Origin: Escherichia coli
GTDB taxonomy: Bacteria; Pseudomonadota; Gammaproteobacteria; Enterobacterales; Enterobacteriaceae
Reading direction: 5' to 3' (one strand)
NCBI RefSeq assembly: GCF_003790525.1
Contig: NZ_CP033635.1
Length of the DNA: 64,000 bases
Positions within the stretch are counted from its first letter, which is position 1; each line of letters starts with the position of its first letter. The notes below the pieces were generated by a model. That model was not told where the DNA came from. It saw nothing but the letters and a program-made list of their open reading frames with translations, and ran no database searches. Made by a program: the position numbers and the translations under genes. This document shows positions 49,244 through 61,105 of the stretch, piece by piece.

Positions 49244-50734
49244 ATGTTTGAAAGTGAACTTTTAACTCAGGGTTTTTCGACATTACTCAATAATCCTCAG
49301 GCGCTGCTGTTTGCCACTTTTGGGGTGATGCTGGGTATTGTGATTGGCGCTTTGCCTGGTCTGACAGCGACCATGGGTGTGGCGATTTTGCTGCCTTTCA
49401 CCTACGGCATGGAGCCTGTTTCTGGCTTGTTGATGATTTGCGGCGTCTTTTTTGGTGGCGTCTACGGTGGTTCTATCACCGCAATTTTGCTCAAAATTCC
49501 CGGAACGCCTGCCGCCGCAGCCACCGCTATTGATGGTTATGAGCTGACGAAACAGGGAAAAGCAGGGCTGGCATTGAGTGCCGCCACGTTCTCTTCCTTT
49601 AGTGGCGGAACGCTCAGCATTATCGTGCTGATGTTTCTCTCTCCGGTACTTGCCAGTTGGGCGCTGAAATTTAGTGCCTCGGAGTCCTTCGCCCTGGCAA
49701 CCTTCGGACTGAGCATTATTGCCAGTATTTCCGGTGAGTCACTGATTAAAGGGCTGATTGCCGGGGTTGGCGGATTGCTGATCGCAACGATAGGCCTTGA
49801 TCCAATGGGCGGTTTTCCACGGTTTACAGGTGGATTTGTGGAGCTGATGAATGTGCCATTTATCCCGGTGATGATTGGTTTATTTGCTGCTTCAGAAGCA
49901 TTCCGCTCTATGGAGCAAAACCAGCAAATTCGTCAGGGGGCGAAGGTGGCTATCGGCAGTCTGTTACTGCCCTGGCAAACACTACGCCGCATTGCATTAA
50001 CCATTTTGCGCTCATCAGGATTAGGGGTTTTTATCGGCATGATCCCCGGTGCGGGGGCGGATATTGCAGCTTTTGTTGCCTATAACGAAACTCGTCGTTT
50101 CAGTAAGACACCAGAAAACTTTGGTAAGGGTGAAATTAAAGCTGTGGCCTCCTGTGAGGCAGGCGCGAATGGCTGCACCGGTGGCGCATTGTTACCTATG
50201 CTGACGCTGGGGATCCCTGGCGATGCGGTAACCGCCATCATGCTGGGCGCGTTAACGTTACAGGGAATGCAACCAGGCCCGCTGATGTTTACCGACCACG
50301 GCGATATGGTTTATACACTGTTTGTCGGCATGATCTTCTGTTACTTCATGCTACTAGTTCTTGGACTGCTCTCTTTGAAAGTCATCGGTAATGTGGTGAA
50401 AATTCCCGGCAATATTCTCACACCGATGATCCTCGCACTTTGTGTGGTCGGGACTTATGCGTTGAACAATAGCCTGTTTGATGTTGGCATTATGCTGATT
50501 GCAGGCGTGGTGGGCTATTTCATGCAGAAAGGAGGATATCCGGCATCACCCGTAGTGCTGGCATTGATTATGGGGCCAATGGCGGAAAGTAATTTTCGCC
50601 GTGCGCTGTCGCTTTCTGGTGGGTCACTCGACTTTCTGTATACCCGACCGATAACTCTGGCATTGCTGACTCTGGCAGCCTTTACGCTACTGACGCCAAT
50701 AATCCGCAAAATAATGCGTTTACGGCGTCAATAA
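49244..50734 (+). CDS. tctA: Tripartite tricarboxylate transporter large permease (TctA family)
   Basis: 496-aa polytopic membrane protein with the duplicated TctA/DUF112-type glycine-rich architecture (e.g. GALPGLTATMG, GMIPGAGADIAAF). Confidence 0.8.
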   Translation: MFESELLTQGFSTLLNNPQALLFATFGVMLGIVIGALPGLTATMGVAILLPFTYGMEPVSGLLMICGVFFGGVYGGSITAILLKIPGTPAAAATAIDGYELTKQGKAGLALSAATFSSFSGGTLSIIVLMFLSPVLASWALKFSASESFALATFGLSIIASISGESLIKGLIAGVGGLLIATIGLDPMGGFPRFTGGFVELMNVPFIPVMIGLFAASEAFRSMEQNQQIRQGAKVAIGSLLLPWQTLRRIALTILRSSGLGVFIGMIPGAGADIAAFVAYNETRRFSKTPENFGKGEIKAVASCEAGANGCTGGALLPMLTLGIPGDAVTAIMLGALTLQGMQPGPLMFTDHGDMVYTLFVGMIFCYFMLLVLGLLSLKVIGNVVKIPGNILTPMILALCVVGTYALNNSLFDVGIMLIAGVVGYFMQKGGYPASPVVLALIMGPMAESNFRRALSLSGGSLDFLYTRPITLALLTLAAFTLLTPIIRKIMRLRRQ

Positions 50735-52698: not shown

Positions 52699-52859
52699 GC
52701 CACTCTTTGACTCCCTTCACATTCGTCATCACACCACCTGCTGAATGCAAAAATTTCGTTGCTGTGCGGCAAACTTTTTTCCTGTTTTGTGCCGCTTTTC
52801 TCCTGAATACTCGTTCTCAGAACAACTGGATCGTTTAAACATCAGACAGGAGATTTACC

Positions 52860-53528
52860 ATGACGCAATCCATTTTTCAGGCTCAACCCTTTGAATTACC
52901 TTTTGATCCGCGCACAACTGCACTGGTCATGATCGACATGCAGCGTGACTTTGTCGAAGCAGGGGGCTTCGGTGAGGCACTGGGCAATGATGTTTCACTG
53001 GTACGCACGGCTATCGCACCATGTACAGAGGTGCTGGCAGCCGCACGTCAAAAAGGAATTATGGTTATTCATACTCGTGAAGGCCATCGTGCAGACTTAA
53101 GCGACTGCCCGCCAGCCAAACTGACGCGCGGCGGAAAAACCTTTATTGGTGAACCAGGACCGATGGGACGCATTCTGGTCAGAGGTGAAGCAGGTCATGA
53201 CATCATTCCTGAACTGTACCCGGTGGCAGGCGAACCGGTGATTGATAAGCCTGGCAAAGGCGCGTTTTATCAAACCGACTTACATCTGATTTTGCAAAAC
53301 CACGGTATCAAGACGCTGATAGTTTGTGGTGTTACAACCGAAGTTTGCGTAACCACCACCGTGCGCGAAGCAAATGATCGTGGCTATGAATGCATTATCC
53401 CGGAAGATTGTGTCGGCTCCTATTTCCCGGAATTCCAGAAATACGCCCTCGAGATGATCAAAGCACAAGGTGCCATTTTCGGTTGGGTTACTGATTCCAA
53501 AGCCATTATTGCAGGCCTGGAAGGCTAA
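52860..53528 (+). CDS. Isochorismatase-fold cysteine hydrolase (amidohydrolase; RutB/BiuH/CSHase-like)
   Basis: 222-aa ORF with aggag RBS; motifs ALVMIDMQRDF (Asp) and LIVCGVTTEVCV (catalytic Cys context) typical of this subfamily. Confidence 0.75.
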   Translation: MTQSIFQAQPFELPFDPRTTALVMIDMQRDFVEAGGFGEALGNDVSLVRTAIAPCTEVLAAARQKGIMVIHTREGHRADLSDCPPAKLTRGGKTFIGEPGPMGRILVRGEAGHDIIPELYPVAGEPVIDKPGKGAFYQTDLHLILQNHGIKTLIVCGVTTEVCVTTTVREANDRGYECIIPEDCVGSYFPEFQKYALEMIKAQGAIFGWVTDSKAIIAGLEG

Positions 53529-53533
53529 CACCG

Positions 53534-54394
53534 ATGGTACAGGTTACGCTTTGCGCATCGTCGTTGGGATATCTTTTCCCGCAGAATGAAACGCAAGATT
53601 TACGTCTACATAGCGCTTTTAAACATGCGGTAAATCTGTATTCAGACGCGGGAACATTCATCACTCTGTTGTGTGCGCAAACGTATCTGAATCTCCCTGA
53701 TGCAGCCAGAGTCTGGCTACCTGAATGTTGGGACTGGCGAAGAGAGATTGCCCATTCAGATCCCATTCAGTTAACCCCAGGCTTACTGCGGACACCTCGA
53801 TTTTGTGTGGCGCTCGAAAACGCAACGCTCTGGCAGTCGCCATTTGTGGGGGGAATGCTGACACTTGAGGCATTCCCTTTGGTTTTCCAGCACTACCCAA
53901 CGATGGCATCGCAACGGCTTTTATTTTGTCTGGAACATAACGTTCAAAGCACATTGCACCTGCCGGATAGTCTCACGCACCAGGGATTAGCGATTATGGA
54001 GCATCCAGATGCGCTGGAACGCCAGGTGCCACAACTGATCGGCTTTGGTAAAGGCTTAACGCCCGATGGAGATGACTATTTGTTGGGCTATCTGGCAGCA
54101 CTCTGGTTATGGCAACTCCCTGCACCACTTGCCGATCATCAATACCGGTTGCAGCAGGTAATTGATCAACATGCGCACAACACCACGGATATCAGTCGTC
54201 ATTATCTGGAGCGTGCGCTTCAGGGACATTTTTCAGAACCGATTTGCCAGTTACTCGCACAACTGGTTGGGAGTGCATCGGCAATGACAATCGCATCCTG
54301 TGCAGAACAGGTCATGCAATTTGGCGCAACGTCAGGAGTAGATTGCCTTGCAGGAATGCTGCATGGCTTTCGAACCCTGAACACCATAAATTGA
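53534..54394 (+). CDS. DUF2877-family protein (YahE/YlbF-like)
   Basis: 286-aa ORF starting 5 nt after the preceding stop; resembles YahE / AllH-type proteins that accompany FdrA-like genes (from memory). Confidence 0.6.
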   Translation: MVQVTLCASSLGYLFPQNETQDLRLHSAFKHAVNLYSDAGTFITLLCAQTYLNLPDAARVWLPECWDWRREIAHSDPIQLTPGLLRTPRFCVALENATLWQSPFVGGMLTLEAFPLVFQHYPTMASQRLLFCLEHNVQSTLHLPDSLTHQGLAIMEHPDALERQVPQLIGFGKGLTPDGDDYLLGYLAALWLWQLPAPLADHQYRLQQVIDQHAHNTTDISRHYLERALQGHFSEPICQLLAQLVGSASAMTIASCAEQVMQFGATSGVDCLAGMLHGFRTLNTIN

Positions 54395-54488
54395 TTTCAA
54401 CCTTTTCTCCCGTAGCCCGTTTATGGGGCTACACGGGGATGCTTTGCCCGAATTTTGCTATCGGGCGGAATGAAACAGGCGTAACAGC

Positions 54489-56048
54489 ATGAAAGTTAAA
54501 TATAAAGTTTTCAGTAATCTTTATCAGGACTCAGTTTCTCTGATGCAGATTTCCGCGCAAATCAGCAAGTTGCCCGGTATTCAACAGGCCTCGGTCGTCA
54601 TGGGAACACCCAATAATCTCGAGCAATTGAGCGATGCGGGTCTGGGTAACGAAATCAACGCCAGTCCCAATGATTTAGTGATTGCAGTCATGGGTGAAGA
54701 AGATATTTGCAATGAAGCACTGGTACTGGCCCAGCAACGTCTGACCAGCAAACCCGATGATGAAACGGATAGTGGCATTAAAACACCGGAAAAGGTCAGC
54801 CTGGAAATGGCACTGGAAGCCGAGCCCGAAGCCAACCTGGCACTCATTTCTGTACCGGGAGACTACGCCGCCGCCGAAGCAATTAAAGCGTTAAACCTCG
54901 GAATGAACGTGATGATGTTCAGCGATAACGTCAGTATCGTGCAGGAAAAATCCATCAAAACGCTTGCCCGAGAACGTCAGCGCATCGTAATGGGACCTGA
55001 CTGTGGAACCGCCATTGTTAACGGCATTCCGTTAGGCTTCGCTAATGTGGTGAAACGCGGAGCAATTGGTGTTATTGGCGCGTCAGGCACCGGGCTACAG
55101 GAAGTGACTTGCCGAATCGACCAGCTCGGAGCGGGTATTTCTCAGGCGTTGGGAACAGGCGGACATGATCTCAGTGAAGAGATTGGTGGAATATCGATGC
55201 TCTTCGCTTTAGATGCGCTGGCGCAAGACGATGAAACTCGCGTGATTGTGCTTATTTCAAAACCGCCTTCACCGATCGTTGCCCGGACTATTCTGGAGCG
55301 TGCCGAGGCTTGTGGAAAACCCGTGGTGGTGAATTTCCTCGGTGCGAATCCGCATGATCTGGCACGTCCCAATATCACCGCGGCCACCACACTTGCCAGC
55401 GCCGCAAATATCGCCGTGGCGTTACTGAATGATCAACCACTTCCGACTATCGAGACCGAAATTTCCTGCGACGATCTCACAATGTTACAAAACGCCTGCC
55501 AGCGCCTGCCAGCCCATCGCCAGGCGATACGCGGTGTTTTCGCCGGAGGAACCTTCTGCTACGAAGCGCAACTTATCTGCCAACAAAAGGGATTCAGCGC
55601 AGCCTCCAATACGCCAGTTGCGGGTAATCGTGCTCTGGCAAATATCTGGCAAAGCGAAGATCACACGTTGATCGATATGGGCGACGATGATTTCACCCGT
55701 GGCAAACCGCATCCAATGATCGACCCGACTCTGCGCAATCAACGTCTGCTCAACGAACTCAACGACTCACACACTGCCGTCGTGTTATTCGACCTGGTAC
55801 TTGGTTATGGCGCTTCCACGACGCCTGCCAGCGAATTACTGGACCAACTTTCACACATCGACATGAATAACGCACCGTTGCTGATTGCGCACGTTTGCGG
55901 AACGGAAGCTGATCCGCAAATACGCAGTCAGCAGATAAGCGCACTACAAAATGCAGGGGTCATCATCGCCAGCAGCAATGCACAGGCGGCGTTATGGGCC
56001 AGCACCGTTGCACAGACTCAGTTGCAGAAAAAGGGGCTAAACGCATGA
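54489..56048 (+). CDS. FdrA/YahF-like protein (succinyl-CoA-synthetase-alpha-like, CoA-binding fold)
   Basis: 519-aa ORF with Gly-rich nucleotide/CoA-binding-like segments (VIGASGTGLQEV, GTGGHD). Confidence 0.7.
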   Translation: MKVKYKVFSNLYQDSVSLMQISAQISKLPGIQQASVVMGTPNNLEQLSDAGLGNEINASPNDLVIAVMGEEDICNEALVLAQQRLTSKPDDETDSGIKTPEKVSLEMALEAEPEANLALISVPGDYAAAEAIKALNLGMNVMMFSDNVSIVQEKSIKTLARERQRIVMGPDCGTAIVNGIPLGFANVVKRGAIGVIGASGTGLQEVTCRIDQLGAGISQALGTGGHDLSEEIGGISMLFALDALAQDDETRVIVLISKPPSPIVARTILERAEACGKPVVVNFLGANPHDLARPNITAATTLASAANIAVALLNDQPLPTIETEISCDDLTMLQNACQRLPAHRQAIRGVFAGGTFCYEAQLICQQKGFSAASNTPVAGNRALANIWQSEDHTLIDMGDDDFTRGKPHPMIDPTLRNQRLLNELNDSHTAVVLFDLVLGYGASTTPASELLDQLSHIDMNNAPLLIAHVCGTEADPQIRSQQISALQNAGVIIASSNAQAALWASTVAQTQLQKKGLNA

Positions 56049-57469
56049 ATACCTTATTTAATCAGCCTTTGAAGGTTGTGAACGCGGGACTACACAGTTT
56101 TGCTGACAATATTCAACATGCCGGGGGAAGCGCAATTGCACTCAACTGGCAGCCACCAGCACAAGGCGATATTGACGCTGGATTGGATCTGGCATCGTTG
56201 CTACGTCATCCCCTGGTAGAAAATGCCAACCAAATCGCCATGACACGTTATCTCGAAGCACAGCCCGTGCTGGTGGATGTCATGCTCGCTAAAGAGGCCA
56301 TTCCAGAAATGGCTGAACAAAAACGTATTTTGCACTCTGGCCCGCCGATTGCCTGGGAAGAGATGTGTGGTCCGGTAAAAGGGGCGATTATTGGTGCCAT
56401 GCTGTACGAAGGTTGGGCCACCAGCCAGCAAGACGCTGAAAACCAAATAAACGCAGGCGAAATCGACCTTGCCCCTTGTCATCATTATCACGCGGTTGGC
56501 CCAATGGCAGGCATCATCAGCCCGTCGATGCCGTTATGGGTGGTAGAAAACAAAACCAACGGCCACCGTACTTTTAGCAATTTCAATGAAGGTCTGGGTA
56601 AGGTTCTCCGTTTTGGCGCCAATAACGATGAAGTTCTCAATCGTCTGGCCTGGATGCGCGATGAACTGGCGCCGGCAATGAAAGCAGCAATCGCACAACA
56701 CGGCGAGCTGGAACTCAAGCCATTAATGGCGCAGGCGCTGCATATGGGGGATGAAGTTCATAACCGCAATGCTGCCGCTACCGGTTTGCTGATTAAGCGC
56801 CTGCTCCCGGCATTGCTGGCCTGCTCTCTTCCACAGGAACATATCCAGCGCGTCGTGGCATTTATCACCGGTAACGATCACTTCTTCCTCAATCTTTCGA
56901 TGGCCGCCTGTAAAGCAATGATGGATGCCGCCGCCAATGTACCGTTCAGTTCAATGGTTACGGTGATGGCGCGTAACGGGGTGAATTTTGGTATTCGGCT
57001 TTCCGGTACTGGCGATCGCTGGTTCCAGGCTCCTGCCAATGCCGTTGAAGGTCTGTTCTTCCCCGGATTTGGCGTCGACGATGCCGCTGCTGACCTGGGT
57101 GATAGCGCAATTACTGAAACCGCAGGTGTGGGTGGCTTCGCGATGGCGTCGTCTCCGGCGATCGTCAAATTTGTGGGAGGCACCCCTGCCGATGCCACCA
57201 ATAACAGCCGTCGGATGCAAGCCGTCACCCTCGGCGGTAACCCCGCATTTACACTTCCAGCCCTCAATTTTGCCCCCACCGCAGCAGGGATTGATGCGCG
57301 TAAAGTGACCGATCGCGGCATTTTACCGGTCATCAATACGGGTATCGCCCACAAACAAGCGGGGGTCGGGCAAATTGGTGCCGGGATCACCACTGCGCCG
57401 ATGGCCTGTTTTGTCGCCGCTGTACGTGCACTGGCGGAGATCGTCGCAAAGGAGAACCATCATGGTTAA
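56045..57469 (+). CDS. DUF1116-family protein (YahG/YlbE-like)
   Basis: Start at ATG 56045 overlapping the FdrA-like stop (ATGA); aagggg RBS 8 nt upstream; 474 aa. Confidence 0.65.
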   Translation: MNTLFNQPLKVVNAGLHSFADNIQHAGGSAIALNWQPPAQGDIDAGLDLASLLRHPLVENANQIAMTRYLEAQPVLVDVMLAKEAIPEMAEQKRILHSGPPIAWEEMCGPVKGAIIGAMLYEGWATSQQDAENQINAGEIDLAPCHHYHAVGPMAGIISPSMPLWVVENKTNGHRTFSNFNEGLGKVLRFGANNDEVLNRLAWMRDELAPAMKAAIAQHGELELKPLMAQALHMGDEVHNRNAAATGLLIKRLLPALLACSLPQEHIQRVVAFITGNDHFFLNLSMAACKAMMDAAANVPFSSMVTVMARNGVNFGIRLSGTGDRWFQAPANAVEGLFFPGFGVDDAAADLGDSAITETAGVGGFAMASSPAIVKFVGGTPADATNNSRRMQAVTLGGNPAFTLPALNFAPTAAGIDARKVTDRGILPVINTGIAHKQAGVGQIGAGITTAPMACFVAAVRALAEIVAKENHHG

Positions 57470-58418
57470 GCCACTGGCTGTCGTCGCGGTTGGCGGCAAT
57501 GCGCTCATTCAGGACGAGCAACGCAATAGTATTCCCGATCAATATGTTGCAGTGATGGAAAGCGTGCAGCATATCGTTGATATGGTTGAAGCCGGATGGG
57601 ACCTGGTGCTAACCCACGGTAATGGCCCGCAGGTGGGCTTTATTCTGCGCCGCTCTGAACTCGCCAGTAACGAAGTTTCTCCGGTTCCACTTGATTACGC
57701 CGTGGGTGATACACAAGGTGCAATTGGCTACATGTTCCAGAAAGCACTGCATAACGAATTGGCTCGCCGTGGCATAAACAAACCGGTAATTGCCCTGGTG
57801 ACACAAACGCGAGTCAGCCCACATGACGATGCTTTCGCCAGCCCCAGTAAACCAATTGGCGCGTTTCTCGATGAAGCAACGGCCCAACAACGCCAACAAC
57901 AACTCGGCTGGACGCTGATGGAGGACGCCGGGCGTGGTTGGCGGCGTACAGTTCCCTCTCCTGCCCCACTGGAAGTTATTGAGCACGACACCATCGCTCA
58001 CCTGGTGCGCCAGGGATATCTGGTTATTGCCTGCGGCGGCGGCGGTATTCCGGTGGTGCGAGACGGACAACAACTGAAAGGTGTAGAAGCCGTGATCGAT
58101 AAAGATCTGGCCTCCGCGCTGCTCGCCAGTCAGTTAGGCGCAGATCTGCTGGTGATCCCCACCGGTGTAGAAAAAGTGGCGATTAACTTTGGTACACCAC
58201 AACAACAGTGGCTCGACGCTATCAGCGTTGCCGAAGCGCAAACGCTGTTGCGGGAAGGTCAGTTTGGTGTCGGCAGTATGCAACCCAAAGTGGAAGCCAT
58301 TGTTGATTTCATCAATGCCAGCCAGCAACAAGGCAAACAGGCCAGCGGCCTGATTACTTCACCGCAAACCATAAAAGCAGCCCTGGCGCATCAGAGCGGT
58401 ACATGGATAACCCTTTAA
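57462..58418 (+). CDS. Carbamate kinase
   Basis: Start at ATG 57462 (MVKPLAVVAVGGNALIQ...), aggag RBS; amino-acid-kinase-fold motifs (VLTHGNGPQVG, IACGGGGIPVV); 318 aa. Confidence 0.8.
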   Translation: MVKPLAVVAVGGNALIQDEQRNSIPDQYVAVMESVQHIVDMVEAGWDLVLTHGNGPQVGFILRRSELASNEVSPVPLDYAVGDTQGAIGYMFQKALHNELARRGINKPVIALVTQTRVSPHDDAFASPSKPIGAFLDEATAQQRQQQLGWTLMEDAGRGWRRTVPSPAPLEVIEHDTIAHLVRQGYLVIACGGGGIPVVRDGQQLKGVEAVIDKDLASALLASQLGADLLVIPTGVEKVAINFGTPQQQWLDAISVAEAQTLLREGQFGVGSMQPKVEAIVDFINASQQQGKQASGLITSPQTIKAALAHQSGTWITL

Positions 58419-58434
58419 TTCTCTGGAGAACACA

Positions 58435-58824
58435 ATGACTACAACGCTTTTAGCCGTTAACGGAACGCTGATGCGCGGCCTGGAACTCAACCCAAATATG
58501 CAAAAAGCGGGCGGTATTTTTGTCCGTGAAGACCGAACTGACGCCCATTACCGGTTGTGGAGTATTAATGATCGCCATCCGGGAATGATTCGCGTGAATG
58601 AAGGAGGAACACACGTCGACGTAGAAATTTGGCAATTACCGCTGGCCAGTTTTGCCGCTCTGTTAATGAGCGAACCCGCTGGGCTGGCAATTGGCAAAAT
58701 CAAACTTGCCGATGGTAGCGAAGTGCTGGGCGTACTGGCAGAAAACTGGCTGACCGAAGGCCAACGGGAAATTACAGAACTGGGTAGCTGGCGCAAATAC
58801 ACCGGGCATTTTCATACTGTGTAA
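58435..58824 (+). CDS. AIG2 / gamma-glutamylcyclotransferase-like small protein
   Basis: 129-aa ORF; N-terminal LLAVNGTLMRG resembles the GGCT/AIG2 fold; ggag RBS. Confidence 0.55.
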   Translation: MTTTLLAVNGTLMRGLELNPNMQKAGGIFVREDRTDAHYRLWSINDRHPGMIRVNEGGTHVDVEIWQLPLASFAALLMSEPAGLAIGKIKLADGSEVLGVLAENWLTEGQREITELGSWRKYTGHFHTV

Positions 58825-58849
58825 CGCGCATTTATAAAGGGAACATACT

Positions 58850-60073
58850 ATGCGTAAAAAAGAAGAGAATCTGAATACGGCATCAGGATTGCGTATTGCC
58901 ATGATTTTGCTGGGTATTGCCGTCACACCTGTGCTGTTGTCATCCTCAAGCCTCGGCAATCAACTTTCCAGCGGCAGTTTAATTAGCGTCGTATTGTTAG
59001 GCGGCGTCATTCTGACCTTACTTTCAGCCATCACCATTAGCGTGGGAGAAAAAGCCCGCCTACCAACGTATGGCATTGTGAAATATTCGTTTGGCGAAAA
59101 AGGGGCCATCGCCATTAACATTTTGATGGCGATAAGTCTGTTCGGCTGGATTGCCGTTACCGCCAATATGTTTGGTCATTCGGTACATGACTTACTGGCT
59201 CAACATGGACTGGAAGTTCCACTGGCACTGTTAGTGGCGGCTGGCTGTGTCATTTTTGTCGCCTCTACGGCATTTGGCTTTGCCGTTCTGGGAAAAATTG
59301 CCCAGGTTGCCGTGCCGGTTATCGCGCTGGTGCTGTGTTACATCCTCTATGTGGCAACCCATACCGAAGTGGCAGTACCAGCGGCGATTGTGGAGATGAA
59401 TACAGGTGTCGCCGTTTCCACCGTTGTTGGCACCATTATTGTGCTGGTTGCCACACTGCCTGATTTCGGTAGTTTTGTGCATAACCGCAAACATGCGCTG
59501 ATTGCCGCAGGCGTGACGTTTCTGGTTGCCTACCCTCTGCTCTACTGGGCGGGTGCAACGCCGAGCGCCATTAGTGGTCAGGGATCTTTACTGGGTGCGA
59601 TGGCGGTATTCGGTGCGGTTCTGCCTGCGGCGCTGTTGTTGATTTTCGCCTGCGTCACCGGTAACGCGGGCAATATGTTCCAGGGCACGCTGGTGGTTTC
59701 CACACTGCTTACCCGCTTTCCCAAATGGCAGATTACCGTGGCGCTGGGTATCCTTTCCGCCATCGTAGGCAGTATGGATATTATGGCGTGGTTTATTCCG
59801 TTTCTGCTGTTCCTGGGTATCGCCACGCCACCCGTTGCCGGAATTTATATCGCTGACTTTTTCTTTTATCGCCGTAATGGCTATCAAGAGTCAGTGTTAG
59901 CCCAGGAGTCACAGATTAAAGTGCTGACATTCGCAGCATGGATCATAGGCGCAGCGGTTGGCTTTATGACCGTAAAAGGCTTATTCACCCTGACGACGAT
60001 CCCTTCGGTAGACTCGATTCTGGTGGCATGTATCGCTTATGCGATTCTCAGTCGGGCAAGTCAACACCGCTAA
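58850..60073 (+). CDS. NCS1-family nucleobase:cation symporter (cytosine/hydantoin/allantoin permease-like)
   Basis: 407-aa ORF with about 12 hydrophobic segments; resembles CodB-type permeases. Confidence 0.7.
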   Translation: MRKKEENLNTASGLRIAMILLGIAVTPVLLSSSSLGNQLSSGSLISVVLLGGVILTLLSAITISVGEKARLPTYGIVKYSFGEKGAIAINILMAISLFGWIAVTANMFGHSVHDLLAQHGLEVPLALLVAAGCVIFVASTAFGFAVLGKIAQVAVPVIALVLCYILYVATHTEVAVPAAIVEMNTGVAVSTVVGTIIVLVATLPDFGSFVHNRKHALIAAGVTFLVAYPLLYWAGATPSAISGQGSLLGAMAVFGAVLPAALLLIFACVTGNAGNMFQGTLVVSTLLTRFPKWQITVALGILSAIVGSMDIMAWFIPFLLFLGIATPPVAGIYIADFFFYRRNGYQESVLAQESQIKVLTFAAWIIGAAVGFMTVKGLFTLTTIPSVDSILVACIAYAILSRASQHR

Positions 60074-60150
60074 TTCCTGGGTATACTCAGGCAATGATTA
60101 CGGCTGAATCTGGAGAGATTCAGCCACTTTACCACTGACCAGGAAGCCTT

Positions 60151-61047
60151 ATGTTCATCTCAGACGAAACGCTTCGTGTTATTCATCTGGTCGCCAGACA
60201 CCAGAGCATTACCACCGCAGCCGAGCAGTTAAATAAAGTCCCTTCCGCCATCAGTTACACCATCAAGAAAGCGGAAGAGAGCCTGGGCGTTGAACTGTTC
60301 ATTCGTAAGGGACGCTATATTGAATTATCGCCAGCGGGAAGTTACTTCATCGAACATAGCAAAACTATTCTTGGCGACCTGGAAGCATTAAAGCGCAACA
60401 CAGTGCTGATTCACGATGGTATTGAGCGTGAACTGACAATTGCGGTAAACAATATTATTCCTGGTGATTTGCTGGTGGCATTTATTCGAGATTTTGAACG
60501 GCAATTCACATCAACAACACTGACGGTAGATCTTGAGGTATACAACGGCTGCTGGGATGCGCTGTACAGTAAGCGTGCCGATCTGGTCTACGGTGCTCCT
60601 CATGCAGTGCCAAGCAGTGAAGGCATCATTAGCGAACCGGTCGGACAAATGGAATGGGATTTTGTCGTCAGCCCACTCCACCCACTGGCAGCGAAGCGGC
60701 ATCCATTAGAAAACAGTGAATTGCGTCATTATCCAGCGGTTTGTATCCGCGATACCTCCGTTAACTTCCCCCCGATGCAAGCCTGGTTGTTGGAAGGACA
60801 AAAACCCATTTTTGTTCCTGACTTCGCTACGGCAATCGCCTTAATAGAACAAAACGTCGGTATTGGTTATATTCCACATCATCTGGCATTGCCGTTATTG
60901 AACAGCGGTAAATTGCTTAAAAAGCCAATGCGCGAACATAAACACGCCACCAAGTTATTTCTTGCCGCTCGTTCCGATGGTATGGGCAAAGCCTGTCAGT
61001 GGTGCATAGAATATTTAAGAAATCCGCAATTAATTTTCTGTTCCTGA
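60151..61047 (+). CDS. LysR-family transcriptional regulator
   Basis: 298-aa ORF with N-terminal LysR HTH (LVARHQSITTAAEQLNKVPSAISYTIKKAEESLGVELFIR) and substrate-binding domain. Confidence 0.8.
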   Translation: MFISDETLRVIHLVARHQSITTAAEQLNKVPSAISYTIKKAEESLGVELFIRKGRYIELSPAGSYFIEHSKTILGDLEALKRNTVLIHDGIERELTIAVNNIIPGDLLVAFIRDFERQFTSTTLTVDLEVYNGCWDALYSKRADLVYGAPHAVPSSEGIISEPVGQMEWDFVVSPLHPLAAKRHPLENSELRHYPAVCIRDTSVNFPPMQAWLLEGQKPIFVPDFATAIALIEQNVGIGYIPHHLALPLLNSGKLLKKPMREHKHATKLFLAARSDGMGKACQWCIEYLRNPQLIFCS

Positions 61048-61079
61048 AGATCCACATCATACCTGGCATACATAGCAAA

Positions 61080-61105
61080 ATGGCTTCCGGTGTTGGAAGC
61101 CATTA
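61080..61105. terminator. Bidirectional terminator between the LysR gene and metE
   Basis: Hairpin aatggcttccggtgttggaagccatt. Confidence 0.6.

What the first reader, a model, noticed from the sequence alone, without database searches (positions are those of the whole stretch)
58435..58824. Stand-alone AIG2/GGCT-like protein next to carbamate kinase
A 129-aa protein with an AIG2/gamma-glutamylcyclotransferase-like N-terminus (LLAVNGTLMRG) follows the carbamate kinase gene. In allophanate hydrolases a C-terminal domain of this fold processes N-carboxycarbamate. A free-standing copy beside a cysteine amidohydrolase and a carbamate kinase suggests an analogous role with an unstable carboxy or carbamoyl intermediate.
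Basis: inference. Interest (0 to 1): 0.45.

Follow-up and report, generated by a model that had tools for sequence, protein, structure and literature searches.

The report
Free-standing allophanate-hydrolase C-domain protein c4763
This small E. coli protein has already been crystallised (c4763, PDB 5C5Z) and sits in a mobile eight-gene nitrogen-scavenging cassette, where it most likely helps break down triuret-like urea oligomers, although its reaction has never been measured.

Summary
The ORF is real: 58435-58824 (+), 129 aa, 16 nt after the carbamate kinase gene. It matches Pfam AH_C over its full length (E 1.6e-41). It is identical to PDB 5C5Z (c4763), whose authors, as cited by a later paper, already linked it to allophanate hydrolase and urea breakdown. 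RefSeq names it "allophanate hydrolase-related protein".

The analysis adds these points:
- The neighbouring cysteine hydrolase has every residue that separates triuret hydrolase (TrtA) from biuret hydrolase.
- The gene order hydrolase-AllH-AllF-AllG-carbamate kinase-AH_C-NCS1 permease recurs in most of 80 loci from several bacterial phyla. The cassette also lies on 82 conjugative plasmids.
- The constant partner of this protein is a TrtA/BiuH-type hydrolase, not the AllFGH-like enzyme or the kinase.
- Green algae fuse this domain type to BiuH, and in Chlorokybus also to a TrtA-like domain.
- This subfamily lacks the His of true allophanate-hydrolase C-domains and has its own invariant Asn, His and Glu.

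Best reading (about 0.45): it decarboxylates the unstable N-carboxy-ureide, carboxybiuret and/or allophanate, formed in an ATP-yielding pathway for a triuret-like compound. No amidase is present to make N-carboxycarbamate. The biochemistry is untested.

The parts
52860..53528 (+). TrtA-type isochorismatase-like cysteine hydrolase, a predicted triuret or acyl-urea amidohydrolase and the first gene of the cassette
   Evidence: Pfam Isochorismatase E 5.9e-48. NCBIfam BiuH model scores 279.8 bits, below its cutoff of 370. Best solved relatives are TrtA 6XIX/6XJ4 (266-271 bits), ahead of BiuH (233-238) and far ahead of RutB. All six TrtA-versus-BiuH discriminating residues are TrtA-type, and the D/K/C triad and Q202 are present (residue definitions from PMC7948467).
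53534..54394 (+). AllH-like (DUF2877) subunit of an AllFGH-type carbamoyltransferase
   Evidence: Pfam PF11392 AllH E 4.3e-27. It is the least conserved cassette member, with median 40% identity across loci.
54489..56048 (+). AllF/FdrA-like subunit
   Evidence: NCBIfam PRK06091 FdrA scores 496.4 bits against a cutoff of 433. Pfam CoA_binding and Ligase_CoA domains are present.
56045..57469 (+). AllG-like (DUF1116) subunit; overlaps the allF-like stop by 4 nt
   Evidence: Pfam PF06545 AllG E 8.6e-99.
57462..58418 (+). Carbamate kinase
   Evidence: NCBIfam TIGR00746 arcC scores 364.4 bits against a cutoff of 358.25, and PRK12352 scores 376.7. RefSeq names it arcC.
58425..58428 (+). Shine-Dalgarno-like GGAG, 6 nt upstream of the ATG
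   Evidence: Read directly from the sequence.
58435..58824 (+). The finding: free-standing AH_C-family (GGCT-fold) protein, identical to c4763 / PDB 5C5Z
58850..60073 (+). NCS1-family permease (CodB-like), the presumed substrate importer
   Evidence: Pfam Transp_cyt_pur E 1.2e-14. The NCBIfam cytosine permease model scores 146 bits, below its cutoff of 326.
60151..61047 (+). LysR-type regulator (PunR/AllS-like)
   Evidence: Pfam HTH_1 and LysR_substrate domains. PunR scores 286.7 bits and AllS 214.3 bits, both below cutoff. A LysR homologue lies within the fetched flanks in 52 of 80 related loci.

Best explanation
The ORF encodes c4763, a free-standing member of a distinct subfamily of the allophanate-hydrolase C-terminal domain (AH_C, GGCT-like fold).

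Proposed role. It is the catalytic partner of a TrtA/BiuH-type cysteine amidohydrolase. These hydrolases turn a terminal ureido amide R-NH-CO-NH2 into an unstable N-carboxy compound R-NH-COO-. TrtA makes carboxybiuret from triuret, and BiuH makes allophanate from biuret. The AH_C protein would remove that carboxyl group as CO2. In doing so it plays the part the fused C-domain is proposed to play for N-carboxycarbamate in allophanate hydrolase.

Proposed pathway in the E. coli cassette:
1. The NCS1 permease imports a triuret-like polyureide.
2. The TrtA-type hydrolase deamidates it to carboxybiuret.
3. The AllFGH-like enzyme phosphorolyses a terminal carbamoyl group to carbamoyl phosphate, either from carboxybiuret (leaving allophanate) or from biuret (leaving urea).
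4. Carbamate kinase converts carbamoyl phosphate to ATP, NH3 and CO2.
5. c4763 irreversibly decarboxylates the N-carboxy intermediate, carboxybiuret and/or allophanate. This speeds flux and pulls the unfavourable phosphorolysis forward.

Shown here: the family, the fold, operon membership, the TrtA-type signature of the hydrolase, conserved synteny, the fusions, and the subfamily-specific residues. Inferred: the substrate, the decarboxylase chemistry, the substrate of the AllFGH-like enzyme, and the order of steps.
For: - Family and fold: AH_C E 1.6e-41; identical to 5C5Z; homologous to allophanate-hydrolase C-domains; Foldseek K. lactis C-domain TM 0.70.
- Operon membership: gaps or overlaps of -11 to +25 nt from allF-like through the permease, 94 nt between allH-like and allF-like.
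- Synteny: of 80 loci from one-genome-per-species contigs, 69 have a TrtA/BiuH-type hydrolase within 9 kb and 65 have AllF/G-like genes plus a carbamate kinase. The exact order Hyd-AllH-AllF-AllG-CK-AHC-NCS1 occurs in Enterobacterales, Burkholderiales, Vibrionales, Psychrobacter and Dyella. All four loci that show AllFG but no hydrolase are cut off upstream.
- Hydrolase as the constant partner: eight loci (seven with two hydrolases, mostly Verrucomicrobia, and one truncated locus with a single BiuH-type hydrolase) have AH_C but no AllFGH or kinase. The one annotated in detail, L065, holds a TrtA-type hydrolase, a true BiuH (416.8 bits against a cutoff of 370), a Cupin_7 protein and AH_C, with no amidase. 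In Pseudovibrio and Palleronia, Hyd-AHC-NCS1 form one unit and AllHFG-CK a separate one.
- Fusions: AH_C-BiuH in Klebsormidium, in three Spirogloea gene models and in transcriptomes; AH_C-BiuH-TrtA-like in Chlorokybus; also BiuH-like-AH_C. The five fusion proteins whose sequences were read carry the c4763-type motif AVNGTLM.
- Hydrolase type: all six discriminating residues are TrtA-type (PMC7948467).
- Instability of the product: carboxybiuret decays with a half-life of about 20 min, and other bacteria dedicate an enzyme (TrtB) to the step.
- Signs of an active site: invariant polar residues N9, R14, R40, H48, R53, E64, E80 and E103. Median identity across loci is 72%, equal to the carbamate kinase.
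- An independent report: comammox contigs that carry trtA next to allFGHK lack trtB (PMC12625717).
Against: - No biochemical data exist for this subfamily.
- The catalytic role of the AH C-domain is itself disputed. [quoted passage not shown]
- Decarboxylating carboxybiuret or allophanate yields biuret or urea. Urease-negative E. coli cannot use urea, so half of the nitrogen would be lost.
- The hydrolase is only 58% identical to characterised TrtA and 53% to BiuH, so its substrate may not be triuret.
- The subfamily lacks the His that is near-invariant in AH C-domains, so the chemistry may differ.
- Five loci show the protein with only urea-type or SsuA-type ABC transporters, or with gamma-glutamyltranspeptidase, and no hydrolase within 9 kb.
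Confidence: 0.45

Rival explanations
1. Non-catalytic adaptor or scaffold. The protein binds the labile N-carboxy-ureide, or docks the hydrolase to the next enzyme. This would set the oligomeric state or channel the intermediate so that it is not lost by spontaneous decarboxylation to a dead-end product (biuret or urea) in urease-negative hosts.
For: AtzF without its C-domain kept full activity, assayed on biuret, but went from a larger oligomer to a dimer (PMC3944691). The domain is found fused to several unrelated partners: amidase, BiuH, carbamate kinase, Cupin_7 and DUF3810. That is typical of a module that mediates association. In E. coli, protecting carboxybiuret or allophanate from decarboxylation would conserve nitrogen and allow two rounds of phosphorolysis.
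Against: The invariant residues are polar or charged and sit at positions that align with the GGCT-family substrate motif (NGTL against YGTL) and near its catalytic Glu. The protein persists in clusters that have no AllFGH-like enzyme to dock to. It also occurs next to transporters only.
Confidence: 0.2
2. One reading: it performs the same reaction proposed for the allophanate hydrolase C-domain, decarboxylation of N-carboxycarbamate to carbamate and CO2.
For: Membership of Pfam AH_C and matches to the C-terminal part of the NCBIfam allophanate hydrolase models. The fold matches the K. lactis C-domain. A core of residues is shared with AH C-domains, including G10, Y39, R40, R53, E64, W66, E103, W119 and R120.
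Against: No amidase-signature enzyme that could make N-carboxycarbamate from allophanate is present in the cassette or in the related loci whose neighbours were annotated. In contrast, the canonical trt clusters carry a full AtzF. The G-A-H His, found in 10 of 11 AH C-domains, is Leu in 25 of 25 subfamily members. Other positions also differ: K/R48 becomes H, I/V80 becomes E, and C102 becomes A/G.
Confidence: 0.12
3. GGCT-like C-N lyase chemistry rather than decarboxylation. One possibility is general-base-assisted cleavage of allophanate or carboxybiuret into carbamate plus cyanate, or another non-hydrolytic split, which would avoid forming urea. Another is a genuine gamma-glutamyl-amine cyclotransferase activity.
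For: Unlike AH C-domains, this subfamily keeps a GGACT-like x-G-T-L motif (N9-G10-T11-L12 against Y7-G8-T9-L10). It also has an invariant Glu (E80) within two residues of the position of GGACT catalytic E82 (the E82Q mutant entry 3JUD is listed). One locus places the gene after a gamma-glutamyltranspeptidase and an M20 peptidase. Avoiding urea would make metabolic sense in E. coli.
Against: The alignment to GGACT is weak (hhalign probability 1.9%), and the Pfam GGACT score is below threshold. No precedent for such a reaction was found. The dominant genomic partners are ureide enzymes, not gamma-glutamyl enzymes.
Confidence: 0.08
4. It accelerates breakdown of carbamate, the carbamate kinase product, to NH3 and CO2.
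For: The gene directly follows the carbamate kinase gene in most loci. A carbamate kinase-AH_C fusion protein exists (P0125).
Against: Carbamate decomposes rapidly without an enzyme (general chemical knowledge). The protein is retained in clusters without a carbamate kinase. The K-12 allFGHK operon is described as those four genes, with no AH_C gene (PMC11326118). A fusion between adjacent operon genes is weak evidence.
Confidence: 0.05

Closest known systems
C-terminal domain of allophanate hydrolase (K. lactis AH/DUR1,2, G. bethesdensis AH, AtzF); Pfam PF21986 AH_C
   Same: Same Pfam family (141.6 bits) and same GGCT-like fold (TM 0.70, rmsd 2.9 A). The conserved core is shared: G10, Y39, R40, R53, E64, W66, E103, W119 and R120. 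Both accompany an amidohydrolase whose product is an N-carboxy compound.
   Different: It is free-standing, or fused to cysteine hydrolases instead of an amidase-signature domain. The G-A-H motif is replaced by N-G-T-L, so the His is lost. It has subfamily-specific invariant N9, H48 and E80 where AH C-domains have V/C, K/R and I/V. No source of N-carboxycarbamate is present in the operon.
c4763 of uropathogenic E. coli CFT073 (PDB 5C5Z; Kim, Choi, Kim & Kim 2015, Acta Cryst F 71:1042)
   Same: Identical sequence, 129 of 129 residues. A later paper cites that study as describing an allophanate hydrolase homologue with a role in urea breakdown.
   Different: Nothing differs at the protein level. 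That paper could not be read here. Its functional claim appears to rest on structural similarity, although the citing paper describes a 'functional analysis'.
TrtB carboxybiuret decarboxylase of the canonical triuret/cyanuric-acid-via-biuret pathway (Aukema 2020, as cited in PMC7948467)
   Same: The proposed function is the same: removing CO2 from the TrtA product. Both co-occur with trtA.
   Different: The two proteins are not homologous. In the canonical atzF-bmpA-nupBC-X-biuH-nupA-trtA cluster, the only candidate for trtB is a 334-aa CN_hydrolase-family protein. That assignment is by elimination and was not verified. The E. coli cassette has no such gene, no BiuH and no AtzF.
E. coli K-12 AllFGH oxamic transcarbamylase plus AllK carbamate kinase (PMC11326118, PMC9843812)
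   Same: The same three subunit families plus a carbamate kinase in one operon. The logic is also the same: phosphorolysis of an N-carbamoyl compound to carbamoyl phosphate, then ATP formation.
   Different: The cassette genes are paralogues. In strain BEN2908 the cassette's counterparts are 40% identical to FdrA, 46% to YahG and 47% to YqeA (PMC12928451). The cassette is not next to the allantoin genes. It is coupled to a TrtA-type hydrolase, an NCS1 permease and AH_C, none of which belong to the allFGHK operon as described.
GGACT / GGCT / AIG2-like gamma-glutamyl cyclotransferases (PF06094)
   Same: The fold matches (Foldseek E 2e-4 to 1e-2). An x-G-T-L motif lies at the same N-terminal position, and an invariant Glu lies near the catalytic Glu position.
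   Different: The Pfam score is below threshold (20.0 against 22.8). The Tyr of the motif is Asn. The equivalence of the Glu is unresolved, with a 2-residue ambiguity in register. The genomic context concerns ureides, not gamma-glutamyl compounds.

Membership tests
Pfam PF21986 AH_C (allophanate hydrolase C-terminal domain) | Full-length match to the family HMM above the gathering score | tested here: met
   141.6 bits against a cutoff of 27, E 1.6e-41. Residues 5-123 cover profile positions 2-122 of 123.
Pfam PF21986 AH_C (allophanate hydrolase C-terminal domain) | GGCT-like fold superposable on the K. lactis allophanate hydrolase C-domain | tested here: met
   The AF2 model (pLDDT 74) against 4ISS gives E 3e-9, TM 0.70 and rmsd 2.9 A. 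The identical sequence has a solved structure, 5C5Z.
Functional allophanate hydrolase (EC 3.5.1.54) | Amidase-signature N-domain, fused or encoded alongside, that deamidates allophanate to N-carboxycarbamate | tested here: not met
   No Amidase (PF01425) domain occurs among the eight cassette proteins or in the Verrucomicrobial, cyanobacterial, Chthoniobacter and Gemmatimonadota neighbourhoods that were scanned. The NCBIfam allophanate hydrolase models score 99-105 bits against cutoffs of 487-511.
Functional allophanate hydrolase (EC 3.5.1.54) | Conserved His of the V-G-A-H-L-x-G motif in the C-domain | tested here: not met
   His is present in 10 of 11 AH C-domains. Leu occupies that position in 20 of 20 free-standing and 5 of 5 hydrolase-, kinase- or cupin-fused members of the c4763 type. 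That this His is catalytic in K. lactis AH is my recollection of Fan et al. 2013, which could not be read here.
GGACT/GGCT/AIG2-like cyclotransferases (PF06094) | Match to the family HMM above the gathering score | tested here: not met
   20.0 bits against a cutoff of 22.8, E 0.0011.
GGACT/GGCT/AIG2-like cyclotransferases (PF06094) | Y-G-S/T-L substrate-binding motif and catalytic Glu (E82 in human GGACT) | tested here: inconclusive
   hhalign pairs N9-G10-T11-L12 with Y7-G8-T9-L10 and pairs E64 with E66. GGACT E82 falls on M78, two residues from the invariant E80, and an ungapped register would pair E80 with E82. The alignment probability is only 1.9%.
Canonical triuret/biuret pathway (TrtA-TrtB-BiuH-AtzF) | TrtA-type hydrolase: catalytic triad plus the six residues that distinguish TrtA from BiuH | tested here: met
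   D, K, C and Q202 are present, and F35, N41, A134, E160, Y187 and I205 are all TrtA-type. Identity to TrtA 6XIX is 58% (definitions in PMC7948467). Activity was not tested.
Canonical triuret/biuret pathway (TrtA-TrtB-BiuH-AtzF) | BiuH, AtzF and TrtB encoded with TrtA | tested here: not met
   None of the three is in the cassette. They are present in the canonical plasmid clusters used for comparison, where TrtB is assigned only by elimination.
AllFGH-AllK oxalurate branch of allantoin catabolism | AllF, AllG and AllH families plus a carbamate kinase in one operon | tested here: met
   Pfam AllH and AllG, NCBIfam FdrA above cutoff, and arcC above cutoff.
AllFGH-AllK oxalurate branch of allantoin catabolism | Orthology to the K-12 enzymes and linkage to allECD | tested here: not met
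   The cassette lies between ysgA and metE, away from the all regulon. In strain BEN2908 the cassette's counterparts are 40-47% identical to K-12 paralogues, and its AllG-like protein was matched to YahG (PMC12928451). Substrate specificity cannot be tested with these tools.

The most novel reading that the evidence does not exclude
The cassette encodes an undescribed, ATP-yielding route for triuret-like polyureides. A TrtA-type hydrolase makes carboxybiuret. An AllFGH-type enzyme, so far known only for oxalurate, phosphorolyses carboxybiuret or biuret to carbamoyl phosphate. The c4763-type AH_C protein is a new class of N-carboxy-ureide decarboxylase that takes the place of the unrelated TrtB and of AtzF. 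Triuret is a peroxynitrite oxidation product of urate and has been detected in human urine. The cassette is mobile, chromosomal in about 29% of complete E. coli genomes and also plasmid-borne, including in avian pathogenic strains. It could therefore be a host-niche nitrogen and energy scavenging trait of extraintestinal E. coli.
Probability: 0.3. Interest if true: 0.7.

Novelty: already known. Interest (0 to 1): 0.35.

Why it matters
As stated, the finding repeats what is already on record: a solved structure (5C5Z), a Pfam family and a RefSeq name. What remains open is the reaction.

If the cassette-level reading is right, three things follow:
- An orphan structural-genomics protein would gain a function.
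- The substrate range of the recently discovered AllFGH transcarbamylase family would extend beyond oxalurate.
- It would explain why a mobile cassette, described in the literature as part of a genomic island strongly associated with phylogroup B2 extraintestinal E. coli, pairs a triuret-type hydrolase with carbamate kinase. The cassette would harvest nitrogen and ATP from urate-oxidation products available in urine or inflamed tissue.

It would also bear on the dispute over whether the allophanate-hydrolase C-domain is catalytic. The free-standing protein is a cleaner system in which to test that.

Tried and rejected
Papers that could not be read:
- The c4763 structure paper (PMC4528939), Fan et al. 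2013 (PMC3774409), Lin & St Maurice 2013 (PMC3568674) and Aukema et al. 2020 (PMC6952224) are not held.
- Statements about the catalytic His and about the identity of TrtB therefore rest on recollection or on elimination.

Literature searches:
- Searches for c4763, 5C5Z and the neighbouring locus tags found no functional study.
- No paper in the library links triuret catabolism to E. coli.

Look-ups that failed:
- Genomic context could not be retrieved for three fusion proteins, P0136, P0132 and P0202. Their reality was instead supported by recurrence in several algal genomes.

Scans that gave nothing useful:
- The promoter/terminator scan found no more sites than shuffled sequence.
- The base-composition profile shows no anomaly that marks the island.

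Ideas considered and rejected:
- The protein is not an obligate AllFGH subunit, because it persists without AllFGH.
- The pyrimidine (Rut-like) reading of PMC12928451 is unlikely. The hydrolase scores about 270 bits to TrtA but about 105 bits to RutB.
- The cassette is not the guanidine/urea-carboxylase route, because no carboxylase is present.

Unresolved:
- The alignment to GGACT is too weak to settle whether E80 is equivalent to the catalytic Glu.
- No tool here gives residue-level structural superposition.
Full report
**Observation.**
The ORF exists exactly as described. It runs from 58435 to 58824 on the + strand and encodes 129 aa beginning MTTTLLAVNGTLMRG. GGAG lies 6 nt before the ATG. 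The carbamate kinase stop codon is 16 nt upstream, and the next gene starts 25 nt downstream. The protein matches Pfam AH_C (allophanate hydrolase C-terminal domain) over essentially its whole length, with 141.6 bits and E 1.6e-41. Its match to the general GGACT/AIG2 model is just below threshold, 20.0 bits against 22.8. NCBIfam allophanate-hydrolase models match only through their C-terminal 120 residues.

**The protein is already known.**
The window is E. coli; the 8.4-kb stretch 52700-61100 is 100% identical to strain SMS-3-5. RefSeq names the protein "allophanate hydrolase-related protein". Its sequence is identical to PDB 5C5Z, "c4763, a uropathogenic E. coli-specific protein". A later paper cites the 2015 structure paper as describing c4763 as a homologue of allophanate hydrolase with a role in urea breakdown. 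I could not read the original. An AF2 model (pLDDT 74) finds 5C5Z first. It then finds the K. lactis allophanate hydrolase C-domain (E 3e-9, TM 0.70, rmsd 2.9 A), then GGCT and GGACT (E 2e-4 to 1e-2).

**Context in the window.**
Eight same-strand genes lie between ysgA and metE:
- a cysteine hydrolase (52860-53528)
- an AllH-like gene (53534-54394)
- an AllF/FdrA-like gene (54489-56048)
- an AllG-like gene (56045-57469)
- a carbamate kinase (57462-58418)
- the AH_C protein (58435-58824)
- an NCS1 permease (58850-60073)
- a LysR regulator (60151-61047)

In K-12, metE and ysgA are adjacent, so this is an 8.3-kb insertion. It is present in 1559 of 5426 complete E. coli genomes. It also occurs at about 94.5% identity on 82 conjugative plasmids, several from poultry, including avian pathogenic strain IMT5155. 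In phylogroup B2 strains it is part of the 16-kb "tkt1" island GR 29 (PMC12928451).

AllFGH is the oxamic transcarbamylase discovered in 2024. It converts oxalurate and phosphate to oxamate and carbamoyl phosphate, and AllK is its carbamate kinase (PMC11326118; PMC9843812). In strain BEN2908 the cassette's counterparts are only 40-47% identical to the K-12 paralogues.

**Conservation across taxa.**
The top 120 homologues are all about 130-aa single-domain proteins, 66-98% identical. Four distant examples have exactly the same seven-gene order with unrelated flanks: Paraburkholderia, Photobacterium, Psychrobacter and Dyella. The Psychrobacter copies lie next to IS elements.

A scan of one genome per species found 449 relatives, and I mapped the 80 best loci:
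- 69 have a TrtA/BiuH-type hydrolase within 9 kb.
- 65 have AllF/G-like genes, and 65 have a carbamate kinase.
- The four loci with AllFG-like genes but no hydrolase are all cut off upstream.
- Eight loci have a hydrolase but no AllFGH-like genes and no kinase. Seven of them, mostly from Verrucomicrobia, carry two hydrolases.

I annotated one of these, L065, in detail. It holds a TrtA-type hydrolase, a bona fide BiuH (416.8 bits against a cutoff of 370), a Cupin_7 protein whose ORF overlaps the AH_C ORF by 8 nt, and AH_C. It has no amidase. In Pseudovibrio and Palleronia, hydrolase-AH_C-permease form one unit and AllHFG-kinase a separate one.

Five loci show AH_C with no hydrolase nearby. Its neighbours there are a true UrtA-type urea ABC transporter, SsuA/"uca"-like ABC transporters, or gamma-glutamyltranspeptidase. 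The constant partner is therefore the hydrolase. The AllFGH-like enzyme with its kinase, and BiuH, look like alternative downstream modules.

A 530-aa membrane protein with no known family supports the idea of a shared substrate. It replaces the NCS1 permease in Phytobacter, and the Verrucomicrobial cluster carries a 50% identical homologue.

**The hydrolase is TrtA-type.**
Its best solved relatives are triuret hydrolase TrtA (6XIX/6XJ4, 266-271 bits). Biuret hydrolases follow at 233-238 bits and RutB at about 105 bits. Tassoulas et al. defined six positions that separate TrtA from BiuH: F35, N41, A134, E160, Y187 and I205. Changing most of them to the BiuH residue reduced triuret activity. 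The E. coli protein has the TrtA residue at all six, plus the D/K/C triad and Q202. The second Verrucomicrobial hydrolase and the algal fused domains have the BiuH residue at all six. Overall identity is modest, 58% to TrtA and 53% to BiuH, so triuret is a prediction and not a demonstration. TrtA converts triuret to carboxybiuret, which decays to biuret with a half-life of about 20 min. Triuret arises from urate oxidation and has been detected in human urine.

**Fusions.**
An exhaustive search of 50%-identity cluster representatives found the c4763-type domain fused in several ways:
- to BiuH, in both orders (P0136 and P0132)
- to BiuH plus a TrtA-like domain (P0202)
- to carbamate kinase (P0125)
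- to Cupin_7 (P0128)
- to DUF3810 (P0168 and P0161)

The AH_C-BiuH architecture recurs in Klebsormidium, in three Spirogloea gene models, in Chlorokybus and in transcriptomes, so it is not an assembly artefact. AH_C is thus joined to two unrelated kinds of amidohydrolase, the amidase-signature type in AtzF and the cysteine hydrolase type here. The products of all of them share the group R-NH-COO-.

**This is a distinct subfamily.**
I compared 20 free-standing and 5 fused c4763-type domains with 11 true allophanate-hydrolase C-domains.
- Shared core: G10, Y39, R40, R53, E64, W66, E103, W119 and R120.
- The c4763 type has invariant N9, T11, L12, H48 and E80.
- True AH domains have V/C, A, H, K/R and I/V at those positions, and Cys at position 102.

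The His of the G-A-H motif is therefore missing. Among the 150 best representatives, 82 have the NGT[LM] motif and 44 the G[AL]H motif. Nine of the ten full-length allophanate hydrolases carry the G-A-H motif; the tenth has Phe in place of the His. A weak profile alignment to human GGACT pairs NGTL with YGTL and places catalytic E82 two residues from E80. This subfamily may therefore retain GGCT-like catalytic elements that AH C-domains have lost. That point is unresolved.

**Proposed mechanism.**
- Step 1 (inferred): the permease imports a triuret-like polyureide.
- Step 2 (predicted from the signature residues): the TrtA-type hydrolase makes carboxybiuret and NH3.
- Step 3 (inferred by analogy): carboxybiuret, H2N-CO-NH-CO-NH-COO-, is oxalurate, H2N-CO-NH-CO-COO-, with an NH inserted before the carboxylate. 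The AllFGH-like enzyme phosphorolyses the terminal carbamoyl group, giving carbamoyl phosphate plus allophanate. Alternatively it acts on biuret after decarboxylation, giving urea.
- Step 4 (family-level assignment): carbamate kinase makes ATP.
- Step 5 (inferred): c4763 decarboxylates the N-carboxy-ureide.

Allophanate is the one candidate substrate that fits all three contexts: the BiuH fusions, the clusters with TrtA-type and BiuH hydrolases, and the AllFGH-type cassette. Carboxybiuret fits the modular arrangement hydrolase-AH_C-permease, and it fits the published note that comammox contigs with trtA next to allFGHK lack trtB. I cannot separate the two substrates. An irreversible decarboxylation would also pull the thermodynamically uphill phosphorolysis forward.

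**Rivals.**
- A non-catalytic adaptor (0.2) is supported by AtzF467 retaining full activity, assayed on biuret.
- A GGCT-like lyase reaction that avoids urea (0.08) is attractive for urease-negative E. coli but has no precedent.
- Carbamate breakdown (0.05) is unnecessary chemically and does not explain clusters without a kinase.

**Comparison with known systems and novelty.**
The canonical triuret cluster was seen here on Klebsiella and Pseudomonas plasmids as atzF-bmpA-nupBC-CN_hydrolase-biuH-nupA-trtA. It contains a full AtzF and, by elimination, TrtB as a nitrilase-superfamily protein unrelated to AH_C. The E. coli cassette shares only TrtA with it. The ORF itself is already known. The pathway reading is new as far as the searchable library shows, since no paper links triuret to E. 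coli catabolism. The one paper that discusses this island suggests pyrimidine use and does not list the AH_C gene among its predicted features.

**Verdict.**
Interest is moderate to low for the finding as written, and higher for the untested cassette-level hypothesis.

Noticed in passing
window 49244-50734 (+): A TctA-type tripartite tricarboxylate transporter permease lies beside udp, where K-12 has rmuC. This is a second strain-specific difference from K-12 close to the cassette.
   Followed up: no
L066:9398-10996 (Phytobacter) and L065:6225-7817 (Verrucomicrobia): A roughly 530-aa polytopic membrane protein has no Pfam family, and the L065 copy has no NCBIfam family either. The two copies are 50% identical between phyla. 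In Phytobacter it takes the place of the NCS1 permease after AH_C, and in Verrucomicrobia it sits between the TrtA-type and BiuH hydrolases. It may be an uncharacterised transporter for the same substrate.
   Followed up: partly
L065:8556-9008, and protein P0128: A ChrR-like Cupin_7 ORF overlaps the AH_C ORF by 8 nt in the Verrucomicrobial locus L065. The same pairing also exists as a single Cupin_7-AH_C fusion protein. Its role is unknown.
   Followed up: partly
window 52700-61100, against the plasmid collection: The whole cassette is carried at about 94.5% identity on 82 conjugative plasmids, 78 from E. coli and 4 from Klebsiella. Several come from poultry, including the avian pathogenic strain IMT5155. 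This lineage is distinct from the chromosomal copy.
   Followed up: partly
L088 (K. pneumoniae IncFII plasmid NZ_CP023489.1, 68096-86731): A canonical triuret/biuret cluster, atzF-bmpA-nupBC-CN_hydrolase-biuH-nupA-trtA-gntR, is bracketed by IS1 and IS26. It is the best match on plasmids of Klebsiella, Enterobacter and Citrobacter, several from clinical isolates. A second atzF lies next to an SsuA-type ABC transporter.
   Followed up: partly
window 58435-58824 (AF2 model against crystal structure 5C5Z): The model matches its own crystal structure only at TM 0.75 and rmsd 7.6 A, yet matches the K. lactis C-domain at rmsd 2.9 A. The last roughly 25 residues have low pLDDT, which may reflect a dimer-dependent or swapped C-terminal segment.
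   Followed up: no
protein P0202 (Chlorokybus, 644 aa): In the AH_C-BiuH-TrtA-like triple fusion, the TrtA-like domain has Asn at the catalytic Asp position and Gly at the catalytic Cys position. It may be an inactive domain or a gene-model error.
   Followed up: no
window 53534-54394 and its homologues in L002-L087: The AllH-like subunit is far less conserved than the rest of the cassette. Its median identity to the E. coli protein is 40%, against 66-83% for the other enzymes and the permease and 62% for the LysR regulator. It fell below the tblastn thresholds (E 1e-8 and 50% query coverage) in several otherwise complete loci.
   Followed up: no
proteins P0168, P0161, P0137 and P0145: Further architectures of the c4763-type domain exist: AH_C-DUF3810, a tandem double AH_C, and AH_C with a flavodoxin-like domain.
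   Followed up: no
L085 (Chthoniobacter) and L079/L081/L083 (cyanobacteria): In some loci no hydrolase was found within about 9 kb, or within the shorter stretch the contig allows. There the gene lies next to a true UrtA-type urea ABC transporter (499.6 bits against a cutoff of 492.75) or next to SsuA-type ABC transporters. One of these has a sub-threshold match to the urea-carboxylase-region binding protein. This hints at a role tied to urea or allophanate itself.
   Followed up: partly
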